Shown here: one piece after another, positions 12,221 to 50,919 of the stretch | Layout of the letters: each line of letters opens with the position of its first letter | Numbering within the stretch: position 1 is the stretch's first letter | Virus record (IMG/VR): IMGVR_UViG_3300025483_000873 | Source of the DNA: a virus | Strand: one strand, 5' to 3' | DNA length: 64,000 nucleotides | Program-made: the position numbers and the translations under genes | The notes under the pieces: model-generated | Databases searched by the model: none | What the model was told of the DNA's origin: nothing | What the model saw: only the letters and a program-made list of their open reading frames with translations

Positions 12221-12388
12221 TTGGAGGGCTATTACAAGACTAACTTTGCTTTGATGCAGTACCATAAATACTCTTTGACGGAGATTGAACACCTCATACC
12301 GTGGGAAAGAGAAGTTTATACTGCTCTTCTAATTCAACATATTCAAGAGGAAAAGAAAAAAGCAGAGGAAGCAAAGACTCGTAGATGA
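12221..12388 (+). CDS. gp51: short gp51-like baseplate hub assembly ORF (possibly made as a frameshift fusion with gp26)
   Basis: LEGYYKTNFALMQYHKYSLTEIEHLIPWEREVY; not in the ORF track; no clear SD/ATG start. Confidence 0.8.
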   Translation: MEGYYKTNFALMQYHKYSLTEIEHLIPWEREVYTALLIQHIQEEKKKAEEAKTRR

Positions 12389-15381: not shown

Positions 15382-15383
15382 AA

Positions 15384-15390
15384 ATAAATA
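15384..15390 (+). promoter_or_regulatory. late promoter
   Basis: ATAAATA in the intergenic gap. Confidence 0.6.
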
Positions 15391-15410
15391 AAGGCATAGA
15401 GGCATAACTA

Positions 15411-26990: not shown

Positions 26991-26998
26991 TATAAATA
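26991..26998 (+). promoter_or_regulatory. late promoter
   Basis: TATAAATA (T4 late consensus) upstream of the giant structural gene. Confidence 0.85.
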
Positions 26999-36000: not shown

Positions 36001-37482
36001 CAAACAAATGCTTCATTTATTACTGGATTTGACTTCGATTACAACGGTGAATTAGATCCTGTATCAAGTGTACTCATTACTGATGCACAAGTTCAGAAGA
36101 TTGTTTCTGACGGTACTGACATTGTTACTATTCATTGGCAGAGTGAAACAAACTCTACATTGAATATTGATTATGGTGAGTTTATCAGAATCTCTGGCAC
36201 AAACATAAGTGAACTGAATGGTGATTGGCCTGTACAATCAAGCATTGTTGCTAATGATAGTACGGTAGAAGTTAGACTTTCTAATACACTTGCTGCTGCA
36301 GAATATCTCTGGTCTGATCAATCTGATGATGCAGAAGTTAGACTGCAGAGTGCATCTGGTCTTCTTGCTGATACTGCTAATGTTCGTATTGGTATTTCTG
36401 AATTCGGTGGAGTTTTAACAACTAGTGATTACTTACTTCTTTCTAATAGTGAGATTGTTAAAGTTGTTGAACTGGTATCTACAGACATTCAATCATTCAT
36501 TGTTACTGACGGTGGTACACCAGAGTCTGTTAACTTCAAGATCGAATCTACAACCGGTAATACATTCGGTAGTGGAGATCTTAACTTTGGTCAAGGATTT
36601 AATAAGTTAGTTGTTGATGGTCCTACAGGTAATACTGCTATTGCGGGAACACTTACTACCGAGAACACACTTACGATCAACGGTTCTACAATCGAAGGTC
36701 AGCAGTTCTTTACAATCACCAACGGTGGTCCTTCTTACCTATCTGATGGAACAACGGTTGCAGTTCCATTCAGAAAAACATTCGAGATTGATACTGCAAC
36801 AGGTGATTTAACCTTGAATGGTGGTAACTTCAATATCTATGGTGTTGATGGAACTACACCGAGACTTACCTTTGATAATTCTTCTGGAGACTTTACCACA
36901 TATGGTTCATTCTCTGCTTTAGGAACAGGAACAAGTACATTTGGCGGATCATTAGCAATTGCTGGTGATGTTACGATCAATGGTGGCGACCTAACTATTA
37001 ACTCTGGAGGAAACCAATCCTTCGCTATTCGTGCTGATAAAGCGATTACACTTGGTGGAATTACTAACTACTTCTCACCCACAGGTGGTCGAAGATGGGA
37101 TTATTCCGATTCCTTTGAAGTTGTTGCAGAAGCAAACGTAAATTACTTCCTAAACGTAAGTCAGAACACTGTTGTTAAACTTCCTGAAAATGCCCAATTG
37201 GGCGACATGATTAGGATTATAGATATTGGTGGTATCTTGACTTATAACTTATCACTTGTTGTTAGAGCACCAAGTGATGTTAGAGTTCAGAATTCTGCTG
37301 ATAACACAGGATCTATAATGCTTTCTGGTAACTCCGCAAGTCTTTCTGGATATAATGGTGGTGAACTTATTGTTCAAACACCTTATGCAGGATTTGCTCT
37401 TGTGTATGCAGGATCATCTGATGCGGATGGCAACACTGCTGTTTCTACCTCCAAAGTTGGTTGGTATCTAATCGAAGTATAA
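27037..37482 (+). CDS. giant virion structural protein (3481 aa; tail/baseplate-associated)
   Basis: Late promoter; YVSPDDFNATD...PFKTIQRA N-terminus typical of cyanophage structural proteins; C-terminal LP..A.LGD.IRIID...FALVY resembles T4 gp9/gp10-type domains. Confidence 0.8.
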   Translation: MPLTRLDNLYSSKTGKYLYVSPDDFNATDELDNRGNSPLRPFKTIQRAFIEVSRYSYLPGKDNDRFDQFSVMLMPGNHFIDNRPGLVDAATPVSRNFDAGNLIEANTQEIIDRAAAEIAVQHPDFYYPGDNQTDDGSRYADSYRLIQLNRQEIIDNAYAVVAANPPVPAPPDLENKCKIDIGRFIDAVSLDVAQAGGNVYTRKLLQNYFNEAGTAWIDDSLEGEVTESIAAFESARDNMLLAITNQLTVKDLTITADPATGDNEDPASCADVQTFINNLTTVVTTVLSAENLSNLPAETVSDHETAGETKCKRDLGYVVEAVIADIRNGGNANTISATKNYFDRDGNPVADGLVGEITESVTSFNKARDMMKLAVTNSLYEKDLTISPGPAIAGQATPTIEYNASGNIATCVDVQSSITTLVAILTDTLTAGTLTGLAAVQVTGTVPVFDYNRALEEWQDDSILDLSNPDNVLYKFNSTTGGTIVPRGCSLIGYDLRRTIVRPLFVPDPVDGAYGRTSIFNLTGGCYLWQFTIKDGDLSENSPLYDQADRVGKVYNNPSDFSSLAIPEYSHHKITIMTYADNAELDRYYEKVGRAFAQFQPTIDDGDLEALVQENRIVGPLSDTRTIESIEIVDIAPGSSARITVSTKIDHGYFRGQYIAVINSGLSENVNGTFKVDTVDQDNPKVFSYTIPINAAGLGLVSGTTYTAANGLGTNGVIQAEIDSVESASPYVFNCSIRSTWGQCGMWADGSKATGFKSMVVAQYTGVSLQKDDRAFIRYDRFTNTWNQAALTDAFATIPYHTKGDAYWKDDWRNFHIRATDDSFIQCVSVFAVGFHDHFLMESGGDMSITNSNSNFGNTSLHAIGFKGFSFNQDKGGYIDAIIPPKVVNTSATAIVKQQYYTIDIEASNDQGNNTSLYLAGDTNQDPANRPAATIGGYRIGAKTGDRLYVKLPSGGVGGKQTYSAELSPSGFQTFTTSLSTLTPAGLNINLDVDGDGNDDFNYAQDAANQIERNRVWLQQETYGHITAKYPALLTNPNITIGKCERDIGYFVDATVKDLRLGGNINTILAAEGYLVGGQLDFIDNELTETLEAYDYLKRLMIGAMRNFNFLIKNCTTTDGSATVVVGDTSGLVPGMRVIEYDQDDYTNGLLDDGAVSLPDNINVNTAIIGEIVNSTTITLVDQATGVAYNAVGTTNTAWLYFENLSQYAQTFQYANNDITQDTNYPECANIATAIEGYFDNVNLVLSGNGSQAVRVEAPIESRSLTGRATLFSINTGGLQSDPHGLQTGTPVRLVPRALTVDTDKRLVRLPRGFETNRPYYVIAPGRDTYPYSFNNTSEFDTTAGTGLLLAATKENAAAGIYIYSPETEAIDPGVEIVLQQYVLDESYDLHRYVTNVSGIYLETDIPHIFDVPLPNVPAQTIFFRTSSDANSLLPDIAGGGPVETDVYYYPRYVTKTKFSVHTSQADAQAGVNAVIFTANSGSDFLVYGDKKTSPMKFDASNFNRWYLNVIDESSGGQNQNGILTRFHDPDFVDGTGNLFTPDTWYERYSDDRNELDRIYRLRYVVPQYLDNVREPLNGYVIKTRTDDRRRLRPQKLTLEPYSSGAPAVAQFFNPSQPTEQLGASLADLDTAGIDIGSPEDLYDPYENPLQIEFQSKIATTIQSARTVTNDLGESRLELTVFDHTITNQSLKNEIFTIIEISPPQGAGIEEDLFNSDDDNYVTWSGYCTGSAYVHAYFPAAIEATAFVILKNVTGKLDFNTAGAGYVGNTVTTFTQSNGTFWELLGEPDSWNNITPYRGASRSSRDNFLYRIEGANLYTVVPGDRVTTPGGDTYTVSNISDVPEIEDSFYIFDVEQIQEVIPAQQDGIYYLTAVRGNISPYPTGAGVGDNFRNYKFSQPISNLYPLDYKNDPLWFQVQDNGTRDTSIVDPPASSAAADNYVHGLVTLNDYKYSETKESVSDLLATDPLLSYQFTNTTSNVDGNIVDNRLRAQEGNASIGSENRKIPINGDSVYPLDGRYYVELRRPSIARSGNHTFEYLGFGPGNYSTGFPLRQEVVLTDKQDFYAQAKREDGGIVFYTGLNSNGDLYIGNRKINAITGEETFLEQAVLGDSGDDSDTIGALVTTFDTAVTFNDKVTVEGDLFLNNPVTINVDPFEGDSLRILSLVGAGDDPTLDRSSFRDNKDGDIVLTKNEVKAGVFKLNPRGNVGAQGQVYSIRTHYTGGTPSNVTPNNTGLVANGGSAWYTLQNITYGSSIVPNAGDIIYKGEEVGYSGSLGWIYSNFYTEIADAQIFTITTDNSTAVTIQWSVGISNQDLKVKVGEKLRISSFSNNFFDGTWNVIGAVDAENTCQIRLFNEIAANVYNWVDEGPGAKIEISESIWKETGVLGAEALRTYTNIPGDYKLGVNTVGRTNQEASLTANVSSDSDPRANLDVVGNAFISGKNLVTYDALGAVSANNYLGEPSNNKVYFPLTNAFLVGGDSSDGDDFATLRVSTTDLAVVDQSATYRVGGRVGVNTSIGLDPSTELDKNFVVIGDSRFTGNVQIQDDLSVDGGDLNSTAESFQFLTNNVDFFVGLNQAESIILGNSTTSSQSISLGDSVSSSSTQTVRIGSNAGSTNLKIHERSQNAVVDIATVEDDVTSNCDVRLGGAAPNLASTTYIGTYQTKLAGTLEVAAFAGTSSARIFTPAATLNIGDGQSTTAVKLGVNASQVTIASLGGKTTIRNSLDVLATATVFGNLKLDGGLSAGIVELERARFATSPSDHIVGSLENPNVTFLKFSQTGKVIDTAGVGLWGGPAFLLGGGQIAAIDNINPTQSATWVANTTYSFIEATGGTGQGGLFTIQVLSDGTAVVELVSPGSGYSNNDLLTIPAAVLGNPAGDDLTFQVSGVNAAGNLYNLPITQPSVSDFQIGDLLLIDRADPLSPDSIDGTGATLPKDQSQTEIVQVVGLTNITNPNDPSGFRISVSRADSGTTARTDHPDGCVINKLDKQTNASFITGFDFDYNGELDPVSSVLITDAQVQKIVSDGTDIVTIHWQSETNSTLNIDYGEFIRISGTNISELNGDWPVQSSIVANDSTVEVRLSNTLAAAEYLWSDQSDDAEVRLQSASGLLADTANVRIGISEFGGVLTTSDYLLLSNSEIVKVVELVSTDIQSFIVTDGGTPESVNFKIESTTGNTFGSGDLNFGQGFNKLVVDGPTGNTAIAGTLTTENTLTINGSTIEGQQFFTITNGGPSYLSDGTTVAVPFRKTFEIDTATGDLTLNGGNFNIYGVDGTTPRLTFDNSSGDFTTYGSFSALGTGTSTFGGSLAIAGDVTINGGDLTINSGGNQSFAIRADKAITLGGITNYFSPTGGRRWDYSDSFEVVAEANVNYFLNVSQNTVVKLPENAQLGDMIRIIDIGGILTYNLSLVVRAPSDVRVQNSADNTGSIMLSGNSASLSGYNGGELIVQTPYAGFALVYAGSSDADGNTAVSTSKVGWYLIEV

Positions 37483-37486
37483 AAAA

Positions 37487-38935
37487 ATGCCTTTCTATCA
37501 AGAAACTAAAACTGCAAGAGGTGCTGCTATTGGCACCATTATGCCATGGACTGGGGGATTGACATCAATCCCCTCTGGATGGATTATTTGTGATGGTCAG
37601 AGTATCTCTGCTAATGATTTTCCGTTATTAGCACAAGCAATTGGAGACACTTATAATGCTGGCAACAGCGATTTTGATGGTAATTTTCCTGGTTATGTGG
37701 GTAACATTAAAATGCCTAATCTCAATGGTAAAACATTGATTGATATGGAATCATCATATTTTGCCGAGTTTAGTGCTGGCGGTACTGGTCGTCTTGCGGA
37801 TGTAGATCCAAAAGCATTGATCTTAATGGACCCTATCATCGGAACAAATGAAGATGCTGGAGTAACTACTATTTTTACTGATGTTTTTGTTGATTTAGTT
37901 TTTAATATTAATAATGATGACAGATCTGGATATGCAGGTAGAATACAAGGAAATACAAAAATTGATGGGGAAGGATTTGTAACTATTTACCCTGGACCAA
38001 GAAAGTTAGGTAGAGCGCATATTAAGAGACATACTCATTTAGGATCTTTAGAAACTATTGATAGTCGTAATAATGCGAAACCTGGACAAGGAGTAGTTCC
38101 TTATGATCCAGTTTATTACACTCTTTTTGCTCAAGGTACTGATAACGATGGACAATCGTCCGATAGTGACGATCCCGTCAGTGGTGATGAAGCGAAGGGA
38201 GTGGCGTTTTACTTTGGTTGGTCTGACGACGAAGGTTGGCAAAATGATTCCCCAGCTGGGACGGGCAACGGAACCTCAAACGTCTCTATAACACCTGCTG
38301 GAACCTCTAACATATATGGTGGTATCGTAGCTGGTAGATTGACGACTGCTGGAACGACCGGTGCAAACACCCCTGCACCACAAGATGCTAATGTTGTTGA
38401 TACATGGACTTTACTATGGCCCACTGGCAATGATATTCCTAGTGGTTTTGGTGAAGGTCAACCTGGTAAAACGCTTGGAAAAGCACATTCAGAGCAACCG
38501 CCTATTAATATGAAACCAGCGTTTTTATCTAGAACTCCCCTAACTGAAGAATTTATTAGTGTTGATGGGTATTCTAAATATATTTCGGGCAATGTTCCTG
38601 CGGGTATAGGAGGAAATACTGTTGGCATTCCTGAAGGATTTACAAATTATTATACAACATCTGACAATACCGTTGGTGATACACTTGTGAGTAATCCTGG
38701 ACTTGGTTTTACTGAACTAAATGAATCTCCTGGTGCTCCGATTGTTGCACATACTCATGACGAGTTTGATGTAGCATTTGATAGTAGTAGAATGAGACCT
38801 CAAAGCAACTTAACTGCAAGTGTTAACATGCCAAATGCTACCCTTGATAATGTGGCAAATCGAAATGCATTACAAATTGATTTTAATATTCAACAACCAA
38901 GAGTAACTTCAATATACATTATCAGGGCATACTAA
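37487..38935 (+). CDS. tail-collar domain fibre protein (gp12-like)
   Basis: IGTIMPW.G....P.GWIICDG...FP.L...IG.TY...MPNL; HTH motifs. Confidence 0.85.
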   Translation: MPFYQETKTARGAAIGTIMPWTGGLTSIPSGWIICDGQSISANDFPLLAQAIGDTYNAGNSDFDGNFPGYVGNIKMPNLNGKTLIDMESSYFAEFSAGGTGRLADVDPKALILMDPIIGTNEDAGVTTIFTDVFVDLVFNINNDDRSGYAGRIQGNTKIDGEGFVTIYPGPRKLGRAHIKRHTHLGSLETIDSRNNAKPGQGVVPYDPVYYTLFAQGTDNDGQSSDSDDPVSGDEAKGVAFYFGWSDDEGWQNDSPAGTGNGTSNVSITPAGTSNIYGGIVAGRLTTAGTTGANTPAPQDANVVDTWTLLWPTGNDIPSGFGEGQPGKTLGKAHSEQPPINMKPAFLSRTPLTEEFISVDGYSKYISGNVPAGIGGNTVGIPEGFTNYYTTSDNTVGDTLVSNPGLGFTELNESPGAPIVAHTHDEFDVAFDSSRMRPQSNLTASVNMPNATLDNVANRNALQIDFNIQQPRVTSIYIIRAY

Positions 38936-38936
38936 A

Positions 38937-39836
38937 ATGGTAACGAGAACTAGTAACTATACTCACAACAAATCTAACTGGGGCGGAATTCCCGGAACCA
39001 TTCAAATGCATACCGTTCATGGTTTGGGATTTAACAATGATCCAACTACTGCAATATTTAAAAATACTATGCCTGGGGGATTTTTAAAATGTGATGGAAC
39101 AGTAAAAAATGCAAAAGATTTTTACTTACTGTCACAAATTTTGGGAGTAGGAGATGATTCTAGATTCAAAAAACCTTCGACTAATGTGAGAAATCCTGAT
39201 ATTGCAACAAATGATCTTGGTCAGTTTCAACTTCCCGATTTAGGATCAAAAGTAATTATTGGTAGTAGAGGATCTGGAGAGTATTTTTCTACAACTTTGG
39301 AAGATGATGCTGGTGTTAGTAAAGTCGGTGTTGAAGTAGAACCTCTCACCAATATTGGAGATAGAGCAACAGTAAACTATATCGGAAATATGGTAATCTC
39401 CTCTGATATTGCTAACTTTAATGGAACTCCTAGGTTTAATATTCCTAGAAATACCAGTGCAACCACTCTTTCTATTGATGAATTTCAAGGTCATTATCAT
39501 AATGCTGGTGGCGGCGGTGGATTTACAGTTTTAAATAAAACAGTTACTCATGCTACTGGTGGTGACGGTAAAGGACCTAGAGCTAACACCGCAAATGCTT
39601 CTGCGGGAAATAGTCTAGAAGAAACTTCTTTAAATGTTCCTACAGGTGAACCGGGACACGATCACACAATTACAAGACCCTATACATATACTAGTGATTT
39701 TACATATACGTATAACAATATTGATGTTCCTCTAGATGATATGGAATCTTATGTAGATGTGGATGTTGAAAATTTAAATGTATTAAATCAAGTTGTTACA
39801 CCATTTATTTTAGTTCATTATATTATCAAATTTTAG
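38937..39836 (+). CDS. tail-collar domain protein
   Basis: GFLKCDG...L..ILG...FQLPDL; HYH, HDH; ends PFILVHYIIKF. Confidence 0.85.
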   Translation: MVTRTSNYTHNKSNWGGIPGTIQMHTVHGLGFNNDPTTAIFKNTMPGGFLKCDGTVKNAKDFYLLSQILGVGDDSRFKKPSTNVRNPDIATNDLGQFQLPDLGSKVIIGSRGSGEYFSTTLEDDAGVSKVGVEVEPLTNIGDRATVNYIGNMVISSDIANFNGTPRFNIPRNTSATTLSIDEFQGHYHNAGGGGGFTVLNKTVTHATGGDGKGPRANTANASAGNSLEETSLNVPTGEPGHDHTITRPYTYTSDFTYTYNNIDVPLDDMESYVDVDVENLNVLNQVVTPFILVHYIIKF

Positions 39837-39848
39837 CGGTAATATTTT

Positions 39849-41438
39849 ATGGGAAGCTATTCTATAGGTAGGTCTAGCAGTGGTAATATTCAAGTACCAA
39901 CAGATGTAAAGACCATGACTTATATCACTGTAGCTGGTGGTGGCGGTGGTGGTTACCCTAACATTCCAGTTTTCAGTGGAAACTTTACTGCTCCACAAGC
40001 AGGTGGATATACTTGTGCCGGTGGAGTTATATCTTATGGTGGTGGAGCAGGTAGTTTATACAGTCCTGGATATGGTGGTAGTGGTAACTGGCGTAGTGGT
40101 CAATCAGGTAGATTCGGTGGTGGTCCGTGGAATAGAGCTGCCTCTGGATATTCGAGTTATGGATCTGGTGGATCTGGTCAGTGGAGAGGAGCATCTAGTT
40201 CATATGGTGGAGGAGGCGGTGGTGCATCTTGCTGTACAAAATCTAGAGGAACTAGTGGTGCTATAGCAGGACAAAATGTTTATGTTCGTATAGGATACGG
40301 AGGAACACAAGGAGGAAGTGGTAACTGTAGATATGGTGCTTCTGGAGGATTTTTTGGGTGTGTTTGTACATATGATGCACCGTTACCATCAATCAGTGCT
40401 AATCCTGGTGCTTTTCGATTAAATGGAACTGATGGAAATAATGCTCAAACAACGTTATCTTGGACGGTTGGTGGTGGAGATTCTGATTCTGAAGTATTAG
40501 AAAGACTGCGAAATGGCGCTGTTGTTGAATCATATGGACAAGTAAATAGGACTAATAACTCGTTTGTCGTTGCTCCTACAGAAACTAGTGAATTTAGATT
40601 AACCGCTTCAAACCCTGCATATAGTAGGTCAGATACAGTTCTTGTTAACGTATACATAGAACCGGTAATAACATTATCAGCATCTGCTGGTGATCAGGAC
40701 CCAGAATCCGACCCACCAACTTACACTATAGTACAAGGAAACAGTACTATATTGTCTTGGACTGTAGTTGGTGATGCTAACTCGCTCCTTATTGAACCTG
40801 GTGTTGGTTCTTCTGCTCTTAATAGTCAAGCGGTAGTATCTCCAACCATAACGACAACATATACTGCTACTGCTTCAGGATTAGGAGGAACTGGTTCTTC
40901 TGAATTACTAGTAACAGTTTTGCAACCATCAACTATCAGTGTAAGTGGTCCTCTTAATATATTGTATGGAGAAAATGTACCAATAACTATTACCGCTACA
41001 AATTCTGATGGTGGTATTAGTTACATTGCTGAATATCTATATCTAGATGGAACTAACGAGTTTAAACCTTCTGTAGCAATACCTAATACTACTGGAGATG
41101 AAGTAGAAGTAGATCTATATAATATTCCTATTGAATATAATGATTTTGGTCCATTTAAAGTGCGACTAGTGTTTACTGTAGATGGATATGGTAGTTTGGC
41201 AGCAACTGATACTATTGAAGTTCCTGTCATTATCGACCAACTGCCTGATGCCATTGACATTCCAGAAACTGATGATACTTTTAAGAATGAAGAACCTGTT
41301 GTAACACCTGATGTTGAAGTTACGACAGATCAAATTGTTATTGATGATATTGATATACCTGTTGAAGTTAAAGCAGATTATCCAATACAGATTGAGATTG
41401 ATGACAGCGGAACATTCATTAATGTGAGGGAAATCTAA
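39849..41438 (+). CDS. tail/virion protein, array paralog 1 (Gly-rich N-terminus + Ig-like repeats + conserved C-terminus)
   Basis: Shared LSW...GDA...I.PG.G...VSPT.TTTYT and IDQ.PD.I.IPE.DD...IDIPVE.K C-terminal blocks. Confidence 0.75.
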   Translation: MGSYSIGRSSSGNIQVPTDVKTMTYITVAGGGGGGYPNIPVFSGNFTAPQAGGYTCAGGVISYGGGAGSLYSPGYGGSGNWRSGQSGRFGGGPWNRAASGYSSYGSGGSGQWRGASSSYGGGGGGASCCTKSRGTSGAIAGQNVYVRIGYGGTQGGSGNCRYGASGGFFGCVCTYDAPLPSISANPGAFRLNGTDGNNAQTTLSWTVGGGDSDSEVLERLRNGAVVESYGQVNRTNNSFVVAPTETSEFRLTASNPAYSRSDTVLVNVYIEPVITLSASAGDQDPESDPPTYTIVQGNSTILSWTVVGDANSLLIEPGVGSSALNSQAVVSPTITTTYTATASGLGGTGSSELLVTVLQPSTISVSGPLNILYGENVPITITATNSDGGISYIAEYLYLDGTNEFKPSVAIPNTTGDEVEVDLYNIPIEYNDFGPFKVRLVFTVDGYGSLAATDTIEVPVIIDQLPDAIDIPETDDTFKNEEPVVTPDVEVTTDQIVIDDIDIPVEVKADYPIQIEIDDSGTFINVREI

Positions 41439-43129
41439 TGCCAAGTTATTCGGGAAGGGGATCTGGACAGAGAACTATTCAAATACCAGCAGGATCTACG
41501 AATGTAAGATTTAGTATAGGAGCTGCATCAGGTGGTGGATCAGCATCTACTACATGGAATCATTCTCGTGGTGGTTTTGGTAGATCTGGTGATTTTAGAT
41601 TAACTAGTCGTGACTATACATATAATCTGACGTTTTACATGGGTCGAGAAGGATCAAAAGGACAAGGACCAGCTAACCCTGGTGGATCTGGTGGTTATTC
41701 TCCGCTAGCAAGTGGTGGTAATGGTTACCGTTCTGGTGGCGGTGGAGGTGGAGCATCAGGAGTATATGACGGTGGATTGAACAGATATACTGTCATTGTT
41801 GGTGGTGGTGGCGGCGCTGGTAGATTTGATAACAATACTGGTTATGGTGGATATTATACTGCTGGTCGTGGTATTGGTGGTGGAGGTACAACAAGTGGAA
41901 TAGGTGGAAGAAATGGTGGGAATGCTCCTGCAGGTCACCGTGGTGGTGGTGGTGGAGGATCTTCTACTGGCGGTGCCGGTGGGTTAGGTGGTGCAACAAC
42001 CACCAATGGATATGCTGGTATTGGAGGAAATTCTGCTTGGTATAGCAATGGAAGTTATTATCAATGGACTTATAATAGTGGATATAGTAATTATGGTGAC
42101 GGATTCTATACGTTGTCGTTTGATTATGCTAAACCAAATATTCAGTATTTTACAATTAGTCCTGATCAAATTGTTCGAGGCGGCAGTGCTCAACTAACAT
42201 ATCAAATTACTGGTTATGTAACTACTGTTTCTTTGACTGATTTTGGTGGCAATCAACCACAAAATCAGTCACCTCCTGGCATCACAATACAACCTGTTAA
42301 TGATAGAACATATACATTAAGTGCATTTGGACCTGGAGGAACTACTTCACAATCCATAAGTGTTGATGTTCTTATTCCACCAATCCCTACTCTTACAACA
42401 ACTGCTACTGATAATACAATAATACAAGGGCAATCTACCTTTTTAGAATATACTATTACTGGAGATGTTTCTTTAGCACAAATTTCTCCTGGCATTGGTC
42501 CTATTAATATTCAGTCAACTCCAATCCAAATATCTCCAACTACAACTACGACATATACAATAACTGCTTCTCATCCATTAGCAGGTCAAGGTTCCGATCA
42601 AGTTACTGTTACTGTTATTACACCTCCTGTAATAACATTAACGTATCCTTTATCTGTTGATTATGGTGAAAATATTAATCTCAATGTACAATCCGAAAAT
42701 GCTACCACATCTCTACAATTATTAGTAAGATATTATTACGCTGACAATACATATACTGACTATGAACTTGTGGAAGATCTTCCTATTGCAGATGTAGTTG
42801 ATCGAGATGTGATACACACACCAACTTATAATAATCTTGGACCTACTATTATAGAATATAAATTATATGCTATAGGTGAGGGTTCATTGACTGCGGAAGA
42901 TATTGAACAAGTATCAATCAACATTGACAGAATGCCTGATGCCATTGACATTCCAGAAACTGATGATACTTTTAAGAATGAAGAACCTGTTGTAACACCT
43001 GATGTTGAAGTTACTAGTCAGCGACTTCTTGTTGATGATATTGATATACCTGTTGAAGTTAAAGCAGATTATCCAATACAGCTTGAGATTGATGATAGTG
43101 GAATCTACGTAGATATCAGGGAGATTTAG
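41438..43129 (+). CDS. array paralog 2 (Gly-rich N-terminus)
   Basis: Same C-terminal blocks; 82-nt exact identity with paralog 1. Confidence 0.75.
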   Translation: MPSYSGRGSGQRTIQIPAGSTNVRFSIGAASGGGSASTTWNHSRGGFGRSGDFRLTSRDYTYNLTFYMGREGSKGQGPANPGGSGGYSPLASGGNGYRSGGGGGGASGVYDGGLNRYTVIVGGGGGAGRFDNNTGYGGYYTAGRGIGGGGTTSGIGGRNGGNAPAGHRGGGGGGSSTGGAGGLGGATTTNGYAGIGGNSAWYSNGSYYQWTYNSGYSNYGDGFYTLSFDYAKPNIQYFTISPDQIVRGGSAQLTYQITGYVTTVSLTDFGGNQPQNQSPPGITIQPVNDRTYTLSAFGPGGTTSQSISVDVLIPPIPTLTTTATDNTIIQGQSTFLEYTITGDVSLAQISPGIGPINIQSTPIQISPTTTTTYTITASHPLAGQGSDQVTVTVITPPVITLTYPLSVDYGENINLNVQSENATTSLQLLVRYYYADNTYTDYELVEDLPIADVVDRDVIHTPTYNNLGPTIIEYKLYAIGEGSLTAEDIEQVSINIDRMPDAIDIPETDDTFKNEEPVVTPDVEVTSQRLLVDDIDIPVEVKADYPIQLEIDDSGIYVDIREI

Positions 43130-43131
43130 AT

Positions 43132-44682
43132 ATGGGAACTTCCGGTAATTTACATACATTCGATTCTTTTTACGCTACTTTCAATCCTGGTTATTTTAGA
43201 GCGGATACTTTCTATACTTCAAACCCTGGCGGCGAACAAATCACTGCATATAGTGCTGTATCCACTGGTGTTTGGAATCTTTTTATGTCTGGCAGCGTTC
43301 CTGGAATCGTTGGGGCTGTTGCACCTGTATATCGATATTGGAATCCAACTCAATATAATCACTTTTACAAAACTAATTCCAGCACTCCTTCTGGTTATGT
43401 TTATGAAGGTATTATTGGTCATGCATATACTAGTCCTGGAGCATATCGTGTACCAGTTTATAGATTTTATAATGCTCAACTGGTAGATCATAAGTTTAAG
43501 ACCAGTTCTTCTGCGCCATCGGGATACAGCTTTGCAGGTGTTGCGTGGTATTCTCCTGTATTTGTATATGGTTGTAAAGACTCTAGTGCTAATAATTTTA
43601 ACCCATATGCAAATCAGGTCAGCACAGGATGTACATATAATGTCTATGGATGCACTGATAGTCGTGCTAGTAACTACAATCCAAGGGCTAATGTTAATAG
43701 TGGATGTTCCTATCCTACTCCCAGTATTAGTTTCACAATATCACCATCATCTATTATTCAAGGACAAAATGCTACATTATCTTGGTCTATTAGTAATGCT
43801 ACTAGTAGATCATTAAGTGGTGTAGGTGCTATTGCTGCTAGTGGTTCTACTATTGTATCTCCTAATGATGATACGACATATACTATAAGCGCATCTTATT
43901 ATGGCATCACTAGTAATACTAGTACTAAAACTTTAGTAGTTTATATCCCCCCAAATGTTACGTTATCACTAGCTTCGCAATCTATTAATTTGGGTCAGTC
44001 TACTATATTGTCTTGGACTACTACTGGTGACGCCTCAACTAATAACATACAACCTGGAATTGGTTCTGCTAATTTAGTATCCCAGGTAACAGTTTCTCCA
44101 ACTGTAACTACAACATATACCGCAACTGTGTCTGGTTTGGGGGGAACCGATAGTGATGAGATTACCTTGACTGTATTTCCTCCACCAGAAGTAAAATTAG
44201 ATGGTCCAATAAGAGTTACTTATGGAGAGAATGTTGTGTTAACACATGAGCAAGAAAGAGCTATTGATACATATGAGTTGCAGATTTTACTAACTGATTT
44301 GGATGGTGATATGACTACTGAACTCGTTGATTTAGGAGCGTCTGCGTTGGGCAATGGCACATATATTCATAATGTTCCGTATAATAGCAGAGGACCATCG
44401 TCTATACTATATACTCTATATGCTGTTGGGCCCGGCAATTTGTCAGATTCGGACTCTATTGAAGTTAATATTGATATTGATCAAATGCCATTTAACATTG
44501 AAATACCAGAATCTGATGGCAAGATTAAAAGCGAAGCACCCATTATCTCCCCAGATGCTGAAGTTACTAGTGAGCAAATCCTTATCGATGATATTGATAT
44601 ACCGGTAGCAATCAAAGCAGATGCTCCTATTCAGGTAGAAATAGGCGACAGTGGTGTGTATGTAGATGTGGAGCAACTATAA
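43132..44682 (+). CDS. array paralog 3 (PVYR-repeat and GCxD-repeat N-terminus)
   Basis: PVYRYWN...HFY, PVYRFYN; GCKDSSANNFNP, GCTDSRASNYNP; shared C-terminus. Confidence 0.75.
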   Translation: MGTSGNLHTFDSFYATFNPGYFRADTFYTSNPGGEQITAYSAVSTGVWNLFMSGSVPGIVGAVAPVYRYWNPTQYNHFYKTNSSTPSGYVYEGIIGHAYTSPGAYRVPVYRFYNAQLVDHKFKTSSSAPSGYSFAGVAWYSPVFVYGCKDSSANNFNPYANQVSTGCTYNVYGCTDSRASNYNPRANVNSGCSYPTPSISFTISPSSIIQGQNATLSWSISNATSRSLSGVGAIAASGSTIVSPNDDTTYTISASYYGITSNTSTKTLVVYIPPNVTLSLASQSINLGQSTILSWTTTGDASTNNIQPGIGSANLVSQVTVSPTVTTTYTATVSGLGGTDSDEITLTVFPPPEVKLDGPIRVTYGENVVLTHEQERAIDTYELQILLTDLDGDMTTELVDLGASALGNGTYIHNVPYNSRGPSSILYTLYAVGPGNLSDSDSIEVNIDIDQMPFNIEIPESDGKIKSEAPIISPDAEVTSEQILIDDIDIPVAIKADAPIQVEIGDSGVYVDVEQL

Positions 44683-46058
44683 TGCCTTATCGCTATAGTC
44701 ATTACAATCGTTACGGAAATATATATATTTGTGATAGGGGACAACTATGGTGGCCTGGTGGCGGTGGTGATTTTAATGACCCCGTTCGCAATCAAGTTAC
44801 ATCTGCATATTATAGTTTGTTTGGTAGATATGGAGAACAGAGTGGTGTAGAAAGATACGTAGGTACGTGGGTATATCACCCTACTAGAGGTGGTTTTAGT
44901 AGTATCTACCAAATGGTCCGAGCTGGTGGTGACAGGAATCAGGGTGGAAGTGGTGAACTACAGAATGTTCAATCTCAAGGAAGGCATACAAATTTAGGAC
45001 TCGGGGCTAACTGTCCTTTTCCTGGGTGTACAGATAGTCAGGCTAGCAACTATAATCCTAGTGCAACATTTAATGATGGTTCATGTACTTACTATCCACC
45101 AACAGTATCTTTAAGCATTAGTCCATCATCTATTATTCGAGGACAAAATGCCACAGTTAGTTGGAGCACATCTAGAAGTACATCTAGATATATTAATATA
45201 TTTGGATCAGTAGGTACATCAGGATCTAGAACAGTTTCTCCCAATAGTACAACAACGTATATACTAACTGCAAGTGGGCTAGGCGGTACTCGTGCAGTCG
45301 CAAAAACATTAACAGTTTATATTCCTCCTATTGTTACGTTAAGTCTTAACAACAGCACTATCGTTTTAGGACAATCTGCAATATTAAGTTGGAATACTAC
45401 TGGCGATGCTTCAACGGTAAACGTACAACCTGGCATCGGTCCCAGTAATATAGTATCCCAGGTAACAGTTTCTCCAACTGTAACTACAACATATACTGCT
45501 ACTGCTTCTGGTGTTGGTGGAGTTGATAGTGATCAGATTACACTGACTGTATTTCCTCCACCAGAAGTAAATTTAAATGGTCCAATAAGAGTTACTTATG
45601 GAGAGAATGTTGTGTTAACACATGAGCAAGAAAGAGCTACGATTGCATATGAGTTGCAGATTGCAATGACAGATTTGGATGGTAATATTACTAATGACCT
45701 CGTTGATTTGGGAGCATCTGCGTCTGCCGATGGCACATATATTCATAATGTTCCATATAACAATAGAGGACCATCGTCTATTGCATATATTTTATATGCA
45801 ATTGGACCTGGTAATTTAACCGATTCTGAATCGATTACAGTCAATGTTGATATTGATCAAATGCCATTTAACATTGAAATACCAGAATCTGATGACAAGA
45901 TTAAAAACGAAACCCCTATTATCTCTCCAGATGTTGAAGTTACTACGGAAAAAATTGTGATTGATGATGTTGATATACCTGTTGAAGTTAAAGCAGATTA
46001 TCCTATTCAAGTTGATCTTAATCAATCTGATAATTGGACGAATATAAGAGAGATCTAA
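44682..46058 (+). CDS. array paralog 4 (helical N-terminus + GCTD repeat)
   Basis: AYYSLFGRYGEQSGVERYV; GCTDSQASNYNP; shared C-terminus. Confidence 0.75.
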   Translation: MPYRYSHYNRYGNIYICDRGQLWWPGGGGDFNDPVRNQVTSAYYSLFGRYGEQSGVERYVGTWVYHPTRGGFSSIYQMVRAGGDRNQGGSGELQNVQSQGRHTNLGLGANCPFPGCTDSQASNYNPSATFNDGSCTYYPPTVSLSISPSSIIRGQNATVSWSTSRSTSRYINIFGSVGTSGSRTVSPNSTTTYILTASGLGGTRAVAKTLTVYIPPIVTLSLNNSTIVLGQSAILSWNTTGDASTVNVQPGIGPSNIVSQVTVSPTVTTTYTATASGVGGVDSDQITLTVFPPPEVNLNGPIRVTYGENVVLTHEQERATIAYELQIAMTDLDGNITNDLVDLGASASADGTYIHNVPYNNRGPSSIAYILYAIGPGNLTDSESITVNVDIDQMPFNIEIPESDDKIKNETPIISPDVEVTTEKIVIDDVDIPVEVKADYPIQVDLNQSDNWTNIREI

Positions 46059-46059
46059 A

Positions 46060-47757
46060 ATGGCAGACTTTCAGCAAACATTTAACAGCAACGGATCAGT
46101 ACAAATTCCAAGTTATGCGATTAATGTTCGTGTTGATATTGCTGGATCTCGCGGTGGCGGGGGTGGCAACGATGCTGGTGCCAATGCTGGACAAGGTGGT
46201 GGTGGAAGAAGAGCAACTATTTCTTTTCCTAATTATACTGCTAGAACATTAAATTTTTATATCGGAAGACAAGGAGGCACCGGAAGAACCGGATCCAATG
46301 CCGGTGGTGGTAGTGCAGGTAGTTCAAACGCTGCTCGCGGTGGTATAGGTGGAAATTCTGCTAATAATGGATATTCTGGTGCTGGTGGTGGCGGTGGTGG
46401 TGCCAGTGGTATTTACGATTCTTTAAAAAATGGATGGGTTGTTATTGTAGGCGGCGGTGGTGGCGGTGGAGGCGCTTCGTTGAATCGCAGTGGTGGTACT
46501 GGCGGTGCTGGTAGAGGACTGTCTGGCAATCCAAACAATCGCAGTGTTGGTAGCAATGGTCAAAAAAATACTAGTCAACCATCAGGTCGTCCTGATGGCG
46601 GCGGTGGTGGTGGCGGCGGTGGTGGATGCGGCGGTGGTAGTGGTGGTTCATTTGGCATTGATAACAATCGCGGCGGCGGTGGTGGTCAGGGTGGTCGATC
46701 TGGTTATGATAGTAGTTATTGTAGTCTTAATAACAATACAATAAATTATGGTAATGGATTCGCAATTGTTTATTATGACATCTCAAATCCTACAATTGAC
46801 AGTTTTTCGTTAAGTCCGACAGCATTTATACGTGGGCAATGTACTACATTGTCTTGGTCATCTACAAATGCGACGAGTGCTAGCATTAATCAAGGTATTG
46901 GAGCAGTTAGTGTAGATGGAAGCACTGTAAGTTGTCCTACTAATACTACTACTTACACTTTAATTGTTTCTAGGAGTGGTCGTTCAACAACTAGAACTGT
47001 AACTGCTACAGTTTATATTCCTCCTATTGTTACGTTAAGTCTTAACAACAGCACTATCGTTTTAGGACAATCTGCAATATTAAGTTGGAATACTACTGGT
47101 GACGCCTCAACTAATAATATACAACCCGGAATTGGTTCTAGTAATTTAGTATCCCAGGTAACAGTTTCTCCAACTGTAACTACTACGTATACTGCAACTG
47201 TGTCTGGTTTAGGTGGAACTGATACTGATCAGATTACATTAACCGTATTGCAACCACCAGAAGTTGATTTAATAGTTCCTTTAAATGTTAGTTATGGAAA
47301 TAGTTTAGAGTTGGGGTATACATCAATTAATGCTACGACATCACTAAAGATAGTGCCATATTACTACTCGTTAGATGGTGTAGAAACTATAGGTGCGGAT
47401 GTGGTATTACCAACAGGTGATAATGTTAGCGGTACTATTACACACACTCCTGTATGGGATAATCGTGGACCTGCAAGAATCGAGTACAAGTTACTTGCAG
47501 AGGGAGCTGGTTCATTAACAGATGAAGATGTTAAAATAGTTCCTGCTATAATAGATCAACTTCCAGATTCTATTACAGTACCAGAATCGGATGATACTTT
47601 TAAGAATGAAGAACCTATTGTAACTCCTAACATAGAATTAACAACAGAAGAACTATTAGTCACTGATATTGATATCCCTGTAGAAATCAAATCTGATTAT
47701 CCTATTCAGGTAGAGATTGACAATAATGGTGTGTGGATTGACGTAGAGAACATATAA
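46060..47757 (+). CDS. array paralog 5 (Gly-rich N-terminus)
   Basis: 92-nt exact identity with paralog 4; shared C-terminus. Confidence 0.75.
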   Translation: MADFQQTFNSNGSVQIPSYAINVRVDIAGSRGGGGGNDAGANAGQGGGGRRATISFPNYTARTLNFYIGRQGGTGRTGSNAGGGSAGSSNAARGGIGGNSANNGYSGAGGGGGGASGIYDSLKNGWVVIVGGGGGGGGASLNRSGGTGGAGRGLSGNPNNRSVGSNGQKNTSQPSGRPDGGGGGGGGGGCGGGSGGSFGIDNNRGGGGGQGGRSGYDSSYCSLNNNTINYGNGFAIVYYDISNPTIDSFSLSPTAFIRGQCTTLSWSSTNATSASINQGIGAVSVDGSTVSCPTNTTTYTLIVSRSGRSTTRTVTATVYIPPIVTLSLNNSTIVLGQSAILSWNTTGDASTNNIQPGIGSSNLVSQVTVSPTVTTTYTATVSGLGGTDTDQITLTVLQPPEVDLIVPLNVSYGNSLELGYTSINATTSLKIVPYYYSLDGVETIGADVVLPTGDNVSGTITHTPVWDNRGPARIEYKLLAEGAGSLTDEDVKIVPAIIDQLPDSITVPESDDTFKNEEPIVTPNIELTTEELLVTDIDIPVEIKSDYPIQVEIDNNGVWIDVENI

Positions 47758-47817: not shown

Positions 47818-50800
47818 ATGACATATTCTTTTTCTAATACACCAGTATATGTAAGCGAAGGACAAACAGTTCGCTTTAAATTTAAAGCACCCTCACAGTG
47901 GAACACTACTCAAAGTGTAACTATTCAGATTGGTGAGCAAACAACGGTCTGGTATATCACTACGATACCAGAAGATTTTGCTCCTGATCCATATCCATTT
48001 CAGACTCTTGATGATGCAGATGCAGGTATCATGTATGTCTATGGAGATGGAAGTAGACCCGGAGAAAGCATTCTCACTATTGTTGGTTTAACTACGTCTA
48101 CAGAAGCAAGCGTTACTGTTACTGGATCTGCTCCTGCATTATCCGAAAACTTCTCTATCAGATATAAGAAAGTATCAGATGGAGAAACAGAATTTAGTGA
48201 TTGGCAGCTGCCTAATCCAGGAGCACTTACTGTAAAGAATACAGATCAAATCCAAACTAGGTTAAAATCTAATTCTATTCCTGGATTATCGTCATATGTT
48301 GATCTTACTATTGGAGCAAGGTCAGAACGTTGGACTATTAATGCGAAAGTAACACCTCCTAATGTTCCTGTACCATTTCCAGACTTCGATGATCTTACTA
48401 ATCAACCATTAAATACGGCTGTTTATAGTAATATTATACAAGTTCAGGGATTAAATGATACTGCAATAATTGCATCAACAAACTCTAATTTATACGTAGG
48501 AGTATCTGATACTAATACATTTTTCACTGATACAAATGGTTATGAGATTTTAAGTAATACTGTTTTTGAATTAGTATCCGACGTTCCTGCACCAACAATT
48601 AATAACGGTCAATATTTGCAGTTGTATATTGTAACTGAAAATACTGCAGGTGCTGTGTCGTCAAATCCACTATCTATTGGTGATGGGGCAAGTGGATCTA
48701 TCTGGAGTGTAAGCAATGGAAATTTCCCATCAACTACACCAAAAGATTTCAGTTTTGTTAATCAAACTGATGTATTAGAAGATGCACTAATTGCCTCTGC
48801 TCCAGCACCAGATCCTAATGATACTCCAGGATCCATTAGCGAATTAGGTACAAATGTAGAAGTTGATGTTGTGTTGGTAAGCAGTACTTCTTCTAATGAT
48901 TCTGGTGGAGATGAACCAAGAATTAAGATTCAGTATGCAGAGGGAGGTGAGAGTTCTATCGGATTGTTCCCAACAAAAGTAAACAATGGGGATAGGATTG
49001 TACTATACAATAGGTCTTCGGGAACATTTTCAACTTCTTTAACGCCATCAGTAGTAACAACTACTATTAAAGTCGGTCAGAGAGTTCTTGATCCTTGGAG
49101 TATTACTACTAATTCTGGACCAGATACTGATGCTGTATTTTCAATACCTACCAATCTTGTTAATCAAGTTCCTAATACAGAAGTATTAAGTAGTATTGTC
49201 AGTGTTTCGGGTATCAATAGACCAATAACCATCAATGCAACAAATGGTGGTCTTATTTCTATTGACTTTGCTACTCCAGTTGCTGGCCCGGTTACATTTG
49301 ATCCTACTATTCATACTTCGTTCCGTGTCTTTATTACTACCGGTAGTGGATTATCCGATTCAAAGCAAACAACAGTTAGTATTGGTACTGGATCACCAAA
49401 TCAATTTATTTGGCAAGTAAGTAACTATGCTGTTGCTCCACCACCACCAGATCTCAAAGGTGCGTGGTATAGTAAGAAAGGTGCTTATGTTGATAGCAAC
49501 GGTGATATTAAAGAAAGTAAGGAAGATGGTCATGCTATTGGTACTATTATAACTATTCTCAAGCAACCTAATGGTACTTATGGTCTATTAGATGGTAGTA
49601 GATCATCACGATATCCAGGATATTATGAGTGTGCGGGACAAACATTAGATAAAGATGATTATCCATTCTTATTTGATGTCATTGGTTATGATTATGGTGG
49701 TGCTGGTAGTAGTTTTAAGTTACCAGATTACAGAAATAGAAAACTTTCGGGAACTGGTGTAGTTGATGGAAATAGAGCATCATCAGCATTTCTTCCTATT
49801 GATGGCGGTAGTAGTATATACGAACCAGGCGGAACTGGTGGTTGGTGGTATGTTGATGATGTTGATGTTGCTGGAGATAATCCATATGAAATCATTGTAT
49901 CTGATGATACTAATGATACAACAGGAATTGAGAGTAACTTCTTCTCTATTGGTACAGTAAAAACAGTATTTGCACAAGATCTTACTCAAGATGTTGACTT
50001 TACTGTTGCTGCTAGCAGTAGTGTAACTGCTCTAGTTGGACCACTTTTAGATACTTCGGTTAATGTTCCTATTCATAGTCATTTATATGTCGCTGCAATT
50101 TCTGATGGAATAACTGGAGATCCTCTAATCCAATGGGACACTAGAGGATCATCTAAATTAGACAGTCACACCGTTTCTGGTGGAGGTATTGGTCAGGGGC
50201 AGCTGTCCATCGAAGATGATGCTCCGGACGCATATAACCCCACAACAATTGCAAATGCTTGGATCTCTAGATTGAACAGTATTGGCGAAAGTCAACAGTT
50301 TGAAGCTGAATGGAATCAAATCGCCAATCAACCTGATTTAATAACTTTAGTTACGGAGATGATTCAATCACTTAACCCAAATAATATCGATGCTAGTGAC
50401 AGAGCTGCTTTAGTAATTTCGGCAAATACCTGGTGGCCATCACCATATTCTGTTGTTTCTGATGATTACATGGAGATCGCTACAGGTCTATTAAACAGAT
50501 TCTATGACACCGATGGGGAGGCTGGAACTGGTAGTCGTGACGTTGCATGTGTTTTTGATACTAATCAGTATTTTACAAGAATAGACCCTTATTCTCCACC
50601 TATTCTTGATGGTGACGACGGAAGTATACAAACTCATGCTCATTTAATTACGACTCAACCAGTTCTTGATCCAAGCGAAGATTATACATACGGAAATACG
50701 TCAGGTGCTGGCAATGGTAAAGAAGGTTTAGGATCAGCGCAGACTACACTTAACATCACATTTAATCAGAGTGATGTTGGCATGGAATTAAATCCTGGAT

Positions 50801-50919
50801 TATTTACTCTAAATACATCAGTTAAGAAACCTATTCCTGACGTAGTATTTTCTCCTAACAGGACAGTGCCACTAGCACCAGAGTTTCATAAAGCAAAGTA
50901 TATTATTAAAGCATTCTAG
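47818..50919 (+). CDS. tail fibre protein with internal tail-collar domain
   Basis: IGTIITI...GYYECAGQ...YP.LF.VIG.DYGG...FKLPD; HSH, HAH; ends AKYIIKAF. Confidence 0.8.
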   Translation: MTYSFSNTPVYVSEGQTVRFKFKAPSQWNTTQSVTIQIGEQTTVWYITTIPEDFAPDPYPFQTLDDADAGIMYVYGDGSRPGESILTIVGLTTSTEASVTVTGSAPALSENFSIRYKKVSDGETEFSDWQLPNPGALTVKNTDQIQTRLKSNSIPGLSSYVDLTIGARSERWTINAKVTPPNVPVPFPDFDDLTNQPLNTAVYSNIIQVQGLNDTAIIASTNSNLYVGVSDTNTFFTDTNGYEILSNTVFELVSDVPAPTINNGQYLQLYIVTENTAGAVSSNPLSIGDGASGSIWSVSNGNFPSTTPKDFSFVNQTDVLEDALIASAPAPDPNDTPGSISELGTNVEVDVVLVSSTSSNDSGGDEPRIKIQYAEGGESSIGLFPTKVNNGDRIVLYNRSSGTFSTSLTPSVVTTTIKVGQRVLDPWSITTNSGPDTDAVFSIPTNLVNQVPNTEVLSSIVSVSGINRPITINATNGGLISIDFATPVAGPVTFDPTIHTSFRVFITTGSGLSDSKQTTVSIGTGSPNQFIWQVSNYAVAPPPPDLKGAWYSKKGAYVDSNGDIKESKEDGHAIGTIITILKQPNGTYGLLDGSRSSRYPGYYECAGQTLDKDDYPFLFDVIGYDYGGAGSSFKLPDYRNRKLSGTGVVDGNRASSAFLPIDGGSSIYEPGGTGGWWYVDDVDVAGDNPYEIIVSDDTNDTTGIESNFFSIGTVKTVFAQDLTQDVDFTVAASSSVTALVGPLLDTSVNVPIHSHLYVAAISDGITGDPLIQWDTRGSSKLDSHTVSGGGIGQGQLSIEDDAPDAYNPTTIANAWISRLNSIGESQQFEAEWNQIANQPDLITLVTEMIQSLNPNNIDASDRAALVISANTWWPSPYSVVSDDYMEIATGLLNRFYDTDGEAGTGSRDVACVFDTNQYFTRIDPYSPPILDGDDGSIQTHAHLITTQPVLDPSEDYTYGNTSGAGNGKEGLGSAQTTLNITFNQSDVGMELNPGLFTLNTSVKKPIPDVVFSPNRTVPLAPEFHKAKYIIKAF

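What the first reader, a model, noticed from the sequence alone, without database searches (positions are those of the whole stretch)
39849..47757. Five tandem paralogs with interchangeable heads and a patchwork of exact DNA identities
Seen: all five share the C-terminal Ig-like and IDQ.P..I.IPE.D blocks, but identity is mosaic. Paralogs 1 and 2 share 82 nt (41242-41323 = 42933-43014) and 50 nt (41341-41390 = 43032-43081); 4 and 5 share 92 nt (45312-45403 = 47008-47099); 3 and 4 share several blocks (for example around 44074-44119/45451-45496 and 44471-44518/45847-45894); 3 and 5 share the TAGTATCCCAGGTAACAGTTTCTCCAACTGTAACTAC region. Different pairs share different segments, which simple serial duplication does not explain. 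Inference: ongoing gene conversion/recombination shuffles variable N-terminal heads onto a common docking tail, i.e. a recombinase-free diversity cassette for receptor binding.
Basis: partly seen in the sequence, partly recalled or inferred. Interest (0 to 1): 0.7.

Follow-up and report, generated by a model that had tools for sequence, protein, structure and literature searches.

The report
Swappable cyanophage fibre tips, split-domain socket
A marine cyanobacterial virus carries a row of five related particle proteins whose host-binding-type heads are exchanged by ordinary recombination among wild relatives, and each ends in half of a protein domain whose other half begins the next tail-fibre gene, which suggests a plug-and-socket way of mounting alternative tips on one fibre.

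Summary
In detail: the exact blocks exist, beat permutation tests, and the five-gene array recurs in other assemblies. The window is a T4-like Synechococcus phage (Kyanoviridae, near S-CAM3). The genes are PHROG 2155 virion proteins: variable head, three Ig domains, 68-aa terminal segment (T). Relatives at 91-96% identity carry 3-, 4- and 5-gene arrays in which heads H3, H4 and H5 sit on the same last tail. The window's gene 4 is itself a chimera of two 4-gene haplotypes (switch at 45388-45404). Crossovers and homogenisation concentrate in the second Ig domain and T. This is unequal homologous recombination plus gene conversion, largely between phage genomes, not programmed switching; heads 1 and 2 stay on their tails in near relatives. 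New point: T is the first half of an uncatalogued ~100-aa repeat, and the downstream collar fibre always starts with the second half (joined profile 98.9%; 49/49 phage records hold both). A complex prediction gave only weak support. Best reading: alternative adhesin tips that dock by completing a split domain. Binding, location on the virion and receptors are not shown.

The parts
39849..41438 (+). P1, 529 aa: glycine-rich head H1 (aa 1-176), IgA, IgB, IgC, T
   Evidence: PHROG 2155 E 6e-135; alignment; head family with 27 members
41438..43129 (+). P2, 563 aa: glycine-rich head H2 (aa 1-232), three Ig domains, T
   Evidence: PHROG 2155; profile of H2/H5-type genes hits the ALK-like glycine-rich domain 7lir, E 2e-4
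43132..44682 (+). P3, 516 aa: beta-rich head H3 with DUF5648 and two Cys-containing short repeats, three Ig domains, T
   Evidence: PF18885 E 3e-11; model pLDDT about 90 or more for the Ig domains, about 50 for T
44682..46058 (+). P4, 458 aa: chimeric gene; head H4 and IgA from an L035-type haplotype, IgB end, IgC and T from an L096-type haplotype
   Evidence: informative sites switch between 45388 and 45404
46060..47757 (+). P5, 565 aa: TNF-like/polyglycine head H5 (aa 1-243), three Ig domains, T; carries the 'last gene' IgC type
   Evidence: model; VIA Z 14.2 ALK GRD, 10.9 Bxb1 tail tip, 10.7 cyanophage Pam3 fibre
47551..47754 (+). T segment of P5 (others: 41217-41435, 42914-43126, 44476-44679, 45852-46055): first half of a ~100-aa repeat domain, the proposed plug
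   Evidence: hhalign to intact repeats from 112 other proteins: positions 5-59, 80.6%, E 1.3e-5; poorly folded alone
47818..47970 (+). First 50 aa of the collar fibre gene: second half of the same repeat, the proposed socket
   Evidence: repeat profile positions 57-103 match aa 4-50; at residue 1 in 120 of 120 homologues
47818..50919 (+). 1033-aa collar fibre: half repeat, four intact repeats, collar domain (aa 600-641), two HxH motifs
   Evidence: PHROG 4924, PF07484; repeats; motifs
37487..39836 (+). Two upstream collar-domain genes (482 and 299 aa), each with two HxH motifs; left boundary of the array in the relatives examined
   Evidence: PHROG 4591, 4714; PF07484; synteny
27037..37482 (+). 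3481-aa tail fibre gene heading the module, behind a T4 late-promoter motif at 26991
   Evidence: PHROG 4527/529; motif
45312..45403 (+). 92-nt block identical to 47008-47099 (IgA/IgB border); flanks the 1696-bp unit that L035-type arrays lack
44018..44193 (+). IgB of P3: crossover zone. Run X7 joins 44018 to 45395; L016 switches to P5 between 44181/47253 and 44193/47265
41242..41390 (+). 82- and 50-nt blocks in T of P1, identical to T of P2 (42933-43081); L095 changes lineage at about 43030
45903..47031 (+). Segment (end of P4 T, H5, IgA of P5) shared with S-CAM4, another genus: 80-82% nt against 57-63% for neighbouring genes

Best explanation
The array encodes alternative adhesin tips of a tail-fibre module of S-PM2/S-CAM-type cyanomyoviruses. 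SHOWN (comparative sequence): each gene is head + three Ig domains + T; array length (1-6 T units, mode 3) and head/tail pairing change by homologous crossovers in the conserved second Ig domain and T, within and between phage genomes, with conversion keeping those two segments alike inside each genome; the window is a derived recombinant of two four-gene haplotypes. WELL SUPPORTED BY SEQUENCE: T and the first 50 aa of the next gene are the two halves of one repeat domain. INFERRED: the two halves fold together, so any paralog can plug into the N-terminal socket of the collar fibre; with one socket gene and several plugs, particles display a mixture of heads. INFERRED: the heads bind the host surface, and the phage's own UvsX/UvsY recombination drives the exchanges. 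The confidence given is for the whole account including docking; the recombination part alone is about 0.9.
For: Haplotypes: L016 (96% nt) P1,P2,H3-last tail; X7 contig of 11.3 kb joining 44018-45395 with zero depth over the skipped part, same layout as L096; L035/L097 with H4-last tail; L095 with foreign P1-P2; P4 switch point; S-RIM44 isolates 97-99% alike in flanks but with different gene-2 heads. Concerted evolution: IgB 76-87% among paralogs of one genome against 50-73% between genomes, while IgA and IgC follow orthology. 36 head clusters in 178 genes, several per tail type. Split domain: T+N joined aligns over 100 columns to intact repeats (98.9%), T alone to the first half, Ig controls under 2%; also to the fibre's own repeat R3 (95.9%; reversed order 45 columns); T poorly folded alone; the same 49 of 50,697 phage records hold both genes; T lies within 700 nt upstream of the socket in 164 of 168 loci; one socket per locus. 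Complex prediction: weak support, 0.35 against best control 0.00, partner pLDDT at least 39, runs agree in at least 9% of contacts; the mark was reached by 58 of 80 solved and 2 of 110 mismatched pairs, but at 0.60 or under by only 7 solved and both mismatches, and halves of a split domain can pass by likeness. Heads: P5 fold matches Pam3 fibre and Bxb1 tail tip (PMC9608196 assigns that domain to receptor recognition); PA14 domains in some relatives' heads. Two of three S-PM2 paralogs are listed as detected in virions (PMC3037559 Table S8, rows identified by gene length).
Against: No binding, stoichiometry or location was measured. The T match to the repeat is moderate (80.6%). In some relatives two or three units are fused in one polypeptide with internal T segments followed by a linker, not by a second half, which a simple one-plug-one-socket picture must accommodate. 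In gp12-like fibres the N-terminus faces the baseplate (own knowledge), so the socket could point toward the virion. All haplotypes near the window are metagenomic contigs, which give no frequencies or rates. Two S-CAM3 isolates keep the same six-gene layout at 99.7%. In a 500-day S-PM2d coevolution study the passages read name mutations in the neighbouring genes d218, d219, d220 and d224 but not in the paralogs d221-223.
Confidence: 0.55

Rival explanations
1. Recombining adhesin array as above, but T docks elsewhere or oligomerises with itself; the half-domains are relics of an old gene fission and no longer pair.
For: Complex prediction only weak; fused polyproteins with internal T; T has diverged from the repeat consensus.
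Against: Both halves are strongly conserved, occur together in all 49 phage records, and the socket is at residue 1 in 120 of 120 homologues; a bare half domain kept this long needs a partner; T identity tracks socket identity across 50 genomes (rho 0.73, though shared ancestry alone gives this).
Confidence: 0.2
2. All paralogs are obligatory parts at fixed, different positions of one fibre or baseplate assembly (a chain or heteromer); recombination is incidental turnover of a tandem array.
For: Position-specific IgC types, conserved order (H1 first, H2 next), modal count of three T units even when fused.
Against: Arrays of 1 to 6 units exist, and 3, 4 and 5 within one 91-96% cluster; only one socket per locus.
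Confidence: 0.12
3. Hoc-like capsid decoration proteins: Ig stalk plus C-terminal capsid anchor, with heads for weak surface adhesion.
For: PHROG files the family under head and packaging; Ig chain resembles RB49 Hoc among many Ig proteins; N-terminal Ig domains with a C-terminal anchor is the Hoc layout (own knowledge).
Against: Constant position inside the collar/fibre module; T is homologous to the fibre's repeat; heads resemble tail-tip adhesins.
Confidence: 0.08
4. A programmed, high-frequency switching cassette acting inside each clone (shufflon, invertible or DGR-like).
For: Exact repeats long enough for recombination; several chimeric forms in nature.
Against: All copies are intact, co-directional genes, apparently translationally coupled; crossover points differ (44018, 44181-93, 45388-404, 43030, 47008); no RT or serine recombinase in S-CAM3/S-CAM4; L105 and L106 match the window over 16 kb with 2-6 differences.
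Confidence: 0.03
5. Blocks and variant arrays are assembly artefacts.
For: Most sequences are short-read assemblies; several contigs break inside T or at the IgC start.
Against: The L016 junction lies in 11 nt of identity, below any assembler word length; X7 lacks the skipped DNA entirely; each layout recurs in separate assemblies; cultured isolates show blocks and head swaps too.
Confidence: 0.02

Closest known systems
PHROG 2155 / T4-GC 737-739 'virion structural protein' (S-PM2 p223-225, S-CAM3, S-CAM4, Syn1, S-RIM44)
   Same: Direct membership (E to 1e-201), same synteny between collar genes, near-identical gene lengths to S-CAM3 genes 1-4.
   Different: The family has a name only; no paper found that describes it as a recombining array or notes the split domain (the library lacks most subscription journals).
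T-even gp38 adhesins (T2, T6, S16; PMC3157838)
   Same: Separate adhesin mounted on a fibre through an attachment domain; glycine-rich recognition domain; chimeras made by crossovers in conserved motifs.
   Different: gp38 is one gene with an N-terminal attachment domain and hypervariable loops. Here up to six genes, C-terminal attachment, an Ig stalk, and whole unrelated heads exchanged.
TNF-like/glycine-rich tips: cyanophage Pam3 gp24 (7ypx), Bxb1 tail tip (9d93), ALK GRD (7lrz)
   Same: Fold of the P5 head (Z 10.7, 10.9, 14.2); H1 and H2 are related by sequence.
   Different: There the domain is C-terminal on a trimeric fibre; here it is N-terminal on an Ig stalk, and H3 and H4 are other folds.
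Recombination hotspots in receptor-binding genes of T4-like vibriophages (PMC12028318) and intragenic conversion in S-TIM4 ORF108 (PMC6224464)
   Same: Homologous recombination as the source of adsorption diversity in large myoviruses.
   Different: Allele exchange in single fibres; no tandem array of tips sharing a docking element.
Donor-strand complementation in chaperone-usher pili (own knowledge)
   Same: An incomplete beta-sandwich completed by a segment of the partner, used as a modular joint.
   Different: Pili donate one strand; here about half a domain comes from each protein, in an unrelated repeat family without Pfam or PDB sequence match. Analogy only.
Shufflons, Mu/P1 invertible tail-fibre segments, diversity-generating retroelements
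   Same: Variable host-recognition ends joined to a constant part.
   Different: Those use a dedicated enzyme, fixed sites and silent copies; none seen here.

Membership tests
PHROG 2155 cyanomyovirus virion protein | Profile match over the tail | tested here: met
   E 6e-135 to 3e-201 for all five
PHROG 2155 cyanomyovirus virion protein | Position between collar gene and 'short tail fibre' gene | tested here: met
PHROG 2155 cyanomyovirus virion protein | Presence in purified particles | not testable with these tools
   Reported for S-PM2 orthologues only (PMC3037559 Table S8)
Concertedly evolving tandem gene array | Paralogs more alike within than between genomes at synonymous level | tested here: met
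   IgB and T only; IgA and IgC follow orthology
Concertedly evolving tandem gene array | Copy-number variants and in-frame chimeras in close relatives | tested here: met
gp38-type adhesin | Polyglycine recognition domain | tested here: met
   P5 head by fold; P1 and P2 by sequence; not P3 or P4
gp38-type adhesin | N-terminal attachment domain, C-terminal specificity domain, single gene | tested here: not met
   Order reversed, three Ig domains between, five genes
gp38-type adhesin | Determines receptor specificity | not testable with these tools
   needs adsorption assays
Diversity-generating retroelement | Reverse transcriptase and template repeat with adenine-specific changes | tested here: not met
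   No RVT_1 in complete S-CAM3 and S-CAM4 genomes (the nearest record is only 47% complete); repeats are exact and coding
Shufflon / invertible fibre cassette | Site-specific recombinase, fixed crossover sites, inverted silent segments | tested here: not met
   No PF00239 in the two complete relatives; all genes co-directional; crossover points vary. Tyrosine recombinases were not searched.
Hoc-like capsid decoration protein | C-terminal capsid-binding domain | tested here: inconclusive
   Ig chain similar to Hoc among many Ig proteins; T not modelled well enough for a fold search
Split-domain (complementation) docking pair | Two proteins carry complementary, non-overlapping halves of one domain | tested here: met
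Split-domain (complementation) docking pair | The halves bind | tested here: inconclusive
   weak predicted support, 0.35 against best control 0.00

The most novel reading that the evidence does not exclude
A widespread lineage of marine cyanomyoviruses mounts a repertoire of unrelated adhesin heads (36 clusters seen) on one tail fibre through a universal plug-and-socket joint made of a split beta-sandwich repeat. Several plug genes compete for one socket, so each particle is a mosaic of tips, and recombination in the stalk and plug adds, drops and swaps heads across species and genera.
Probability: 0.4. Interest if true: 0.8.

Novelty: new variant of a known kind. Interest (0 to 1): 0.6.

Why it matters
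T4-like cyanophages lack recognisable T4 fibre and adhesin genes, and which proteins set their host range is open (PMC2984593). This array gives named candidates in cultured models (S-PM2 p223-225, S-CAM3, Syn1, S-RIM44) and natural isolate pairs that differ in one head. The split domain predicts a specific, cheap-to-test interaction. If it holds, it is an attachment principle for phage adhesins not found in the papers searched, and a route to breadth of host range by mixed display instead of switching. If it fails, what remains is a well-documented but familiar case of recombination in phage fibre genes.

Tried and rejected
Window's own assembly not held; nearest record G001 = L016 is 47% complete, so the absence of UvsX, UvsY, RT and resolvase there says nothing. 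Pairwise profile of five paralogs against the fibre gave nothing; deep alignments were needed. No natural fusion of T to the socket among 120 fibre homologues or 120 longer proteins. Read-through from the last paralog into the fibre rejected: spacers of 26-60 nt in different frames, and all paralogs carry T. Pfam, PDB sequence search and the Atlas gave no name for the repeat or for head H4; this is not proof of a new fold. Foldseek on whole models returned generic Ig chains. 'Window is ancestral, others are deletions' rejected: more distant relatives have the four-gene H4-last layout, P3 and P4 tails are closer to each other (84%) than to outgroup orthologues (71-76%), and H5 is shared with another genus. 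Earlier scan notes held nothing on this family.
Full report
Setting. The window is part of a T4-like marine cyanophage. Its genes match PHROG baseplate, tail and fibre families, and the closest cultured relatives of this module are Kyanoviridae infecting Synechococcus, with S-CAM3 nearest. The five genes P1-P5 (39849-47757) are PHROG 2155 'virion structural proteins'. They lie between two collar-domain genes (37487, 38937) and a 1033-aa collar fibre gene (47818), downstream of a 3481-aa fibre gene. The same module is in S-PM2, Syn1, S-RIM44, S-CAM1, S-CAM3, S-CAM4 and others.

Observation. They exceed chance in codon-level permutations that keep the amino-acid pattern (p 5e-5 to 0.01 for the four pairs named). 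All 17 four-fold sites in the P1/P2 blocks agree, against 40% elsewhere. The array recurs in other assemblies, and exact blocks between paralogs are common in relatives, including cultured isolates, in pairs that differ from genome to genome.

Anatomy. Models of P3 and P5 show a head, three confident Ig-like domains (IgA, IgB, IgC) and a terminal 68 aa (T) that does not fold alone. The P5 head matches the ALK glycine-rich domain (Z 14.2, rmsd 4.3, 198 aligned), the Bxb1 tail tip (Z 10.9, rmsd 3.3, 149) and the fibre of cyanophage Pam3 (Z 10.7, rmsd 2.8, 142); in Pam3 this domain is assigned to host recognition (PMC9608196). H1 and H2 are related glycine-rich heads, H3 holds DUF5648, H4 is unassigned. 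Across 178 genes there are 36 head clusters, some with PA14 sugar-binding domains, and several tail types carry three or four different heads. Heads themselves are old families found across many genomes.

Recombination. In near relatives (91-96% nt) there are four layouts: A, P1 P2 P3 and H4 on the 'last' tail (L097; L035, which begins inside P2; also the more distant L099, L019); B, P1 P2, H3 on a P4-type tail, P5 (L096; run X7 from another study, whose 11.3-kb contig joins 44018 to 45395 and which has no depth over the skipped DNA); D, P1 P2 and H3 on the last tail (L016, junction in 11 nt of identity; also L098, L101); and the window's five genes. At sites that distinguish A from B, the window's P4 follows A up to 45388 and B from 45404. 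The window is therefore most simply a product of unequal crossover between an A and a B genome. That explains the 92-nt P4=P5 block and the 84% likeness of the P3 and P4 tails without intragenomic conversion. H5 with IgA is 82% identical to S-CAM4, against 57-63% for neighbouring genes, which points to transfer between genera (direction not tested). L095 has the window's P3-P5 but P1-P2 of another lineage, joined inside T. Cultured S-RIM44 isolates differ in the head of gene 2 with 97-99% flanks. Conversion proper is seen in IgB and T, where paralogs of one genome are closer than positional orthologues, while IgA travels with the head and IgC keeps position-specific types. H1 and H2 stayed on their own tails in near relatives. 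Complete relatives encode UvsX-like and UvsY proteins and no RT or serine recombinase, so general T4-type recombination is the likely engine (inference). Nothing here measures a rate.

The split domain. The fibre gene at 47818 holds four copies of a repeat and starts with a fragment matching their second half (93-95%). A search of 1.84 billion representatives found many unrelated proteins with tandem copies. A profile of these intact repeats (112 proteins, spacing 99 aa) matches fibre aa 4-50 at positions 57-103, T at positions 5-59 (80.6%, E 1.3e-5; this half was not used to select the repeats), and T joined to the fragment over 100 columns (98.9%); Ig domains score under 2%. The repeat has no Pfam family or solved relative by sequence. 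The same 49 phage records hold both genes; all 120 fibre homologues start with the half domain and none is fused to T; there is one socket per locus and 1-6 T units, mode 3 (counts are limited by locus length). The complex prediction was a weak pass: 0.35 against best control 0.00, partner pLDDT at least 39, run agreement at least 9%; scores of 0.60 or under were reached by 7 of 80 solved complexes and by both mismatches that passed, and split halves may pass by likeness. It does not establish binding.

Mechanism. Most likely each paralog is an adhesin on an Ig stalk whose T completes the first domain of the collar fibre. The three collar proteins share collar, HxH motifs and C-terminal strand and may form one needle (speculation). 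With several plugs and one socket, particles would carry mixed tips. Two S-PM2 paralogs are listed as detected in virions (PMC3037559 Table S8; row labels in the machine-read table are shifted, so rows were identified by gene length), which fits co-incorporation but also the fixed-position rival. Fused polyproteins with internal T segments and the absence of the paralogs from the mutations named in the passages read of an S-PM2d coevolution study (PMC9910659) are the main unexplained points.

Verdict. Real feature; reader partly right. The genetic part is a known kind of process (gp38-style shuffling at conserved motifs, PMC3157838) in a family that had only a generic name. The split-domain joint was not found in the literature searched and is the part worth testing. 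Interest 0.6; new variant of a known kind.

Noticed in passing
L002:7169-12754, L010:5403-10772, L077:7973-13048: Two or three head-Ig-T units fused into one polypeptide (1691-1861 aa) in ACG-2014e/j-type phages; total T count stays three.
   Followed up: partly
L015:9991-12065 (S-CAM3 isolate 0910TB04): The sixth paralog is broken into two ORFs in this isolate but intact in 1010CC42; real lesion or sequencing error not checked.
   Followed up: no
window 37487-39836 and 47818-50919: Three collar-domain proteins, each with two HxH motifs and a similar C-terminal strand; possible heterotrimeric metal-binding needle.
   Followed up: partly
P0241-P0382: Large family of proteins with up to about 30 tandem ~99-aa repeats and no Pfam or PDB sequence match; worth its own description.
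   Followed up: partly
L005, L006, L007: One S-RIM44 isolate matches Syn1 at 99.9% over 21 kb of this region while differing from another S-RIM44 isolate in the array.
   Followed up: partly
L064 vs L071/L089: Near-identical phages differ by an in-frame 237-nt deletion in the head of gene 2 and by short indels in the large fibre gene.
   Followed up: no
window 12385-17957: Two large conserved genes of unknown function (998 and 848 aa; PHROG 11440, 10925) ahead of the tail and baseplate-hub genes.
   Followed up: no
L156, L164, L167, L172, L176-L178, L180: A lineage with a single paralog between collar gene and fibre, a natural minimal case for testing the socket.
   Followed up: no
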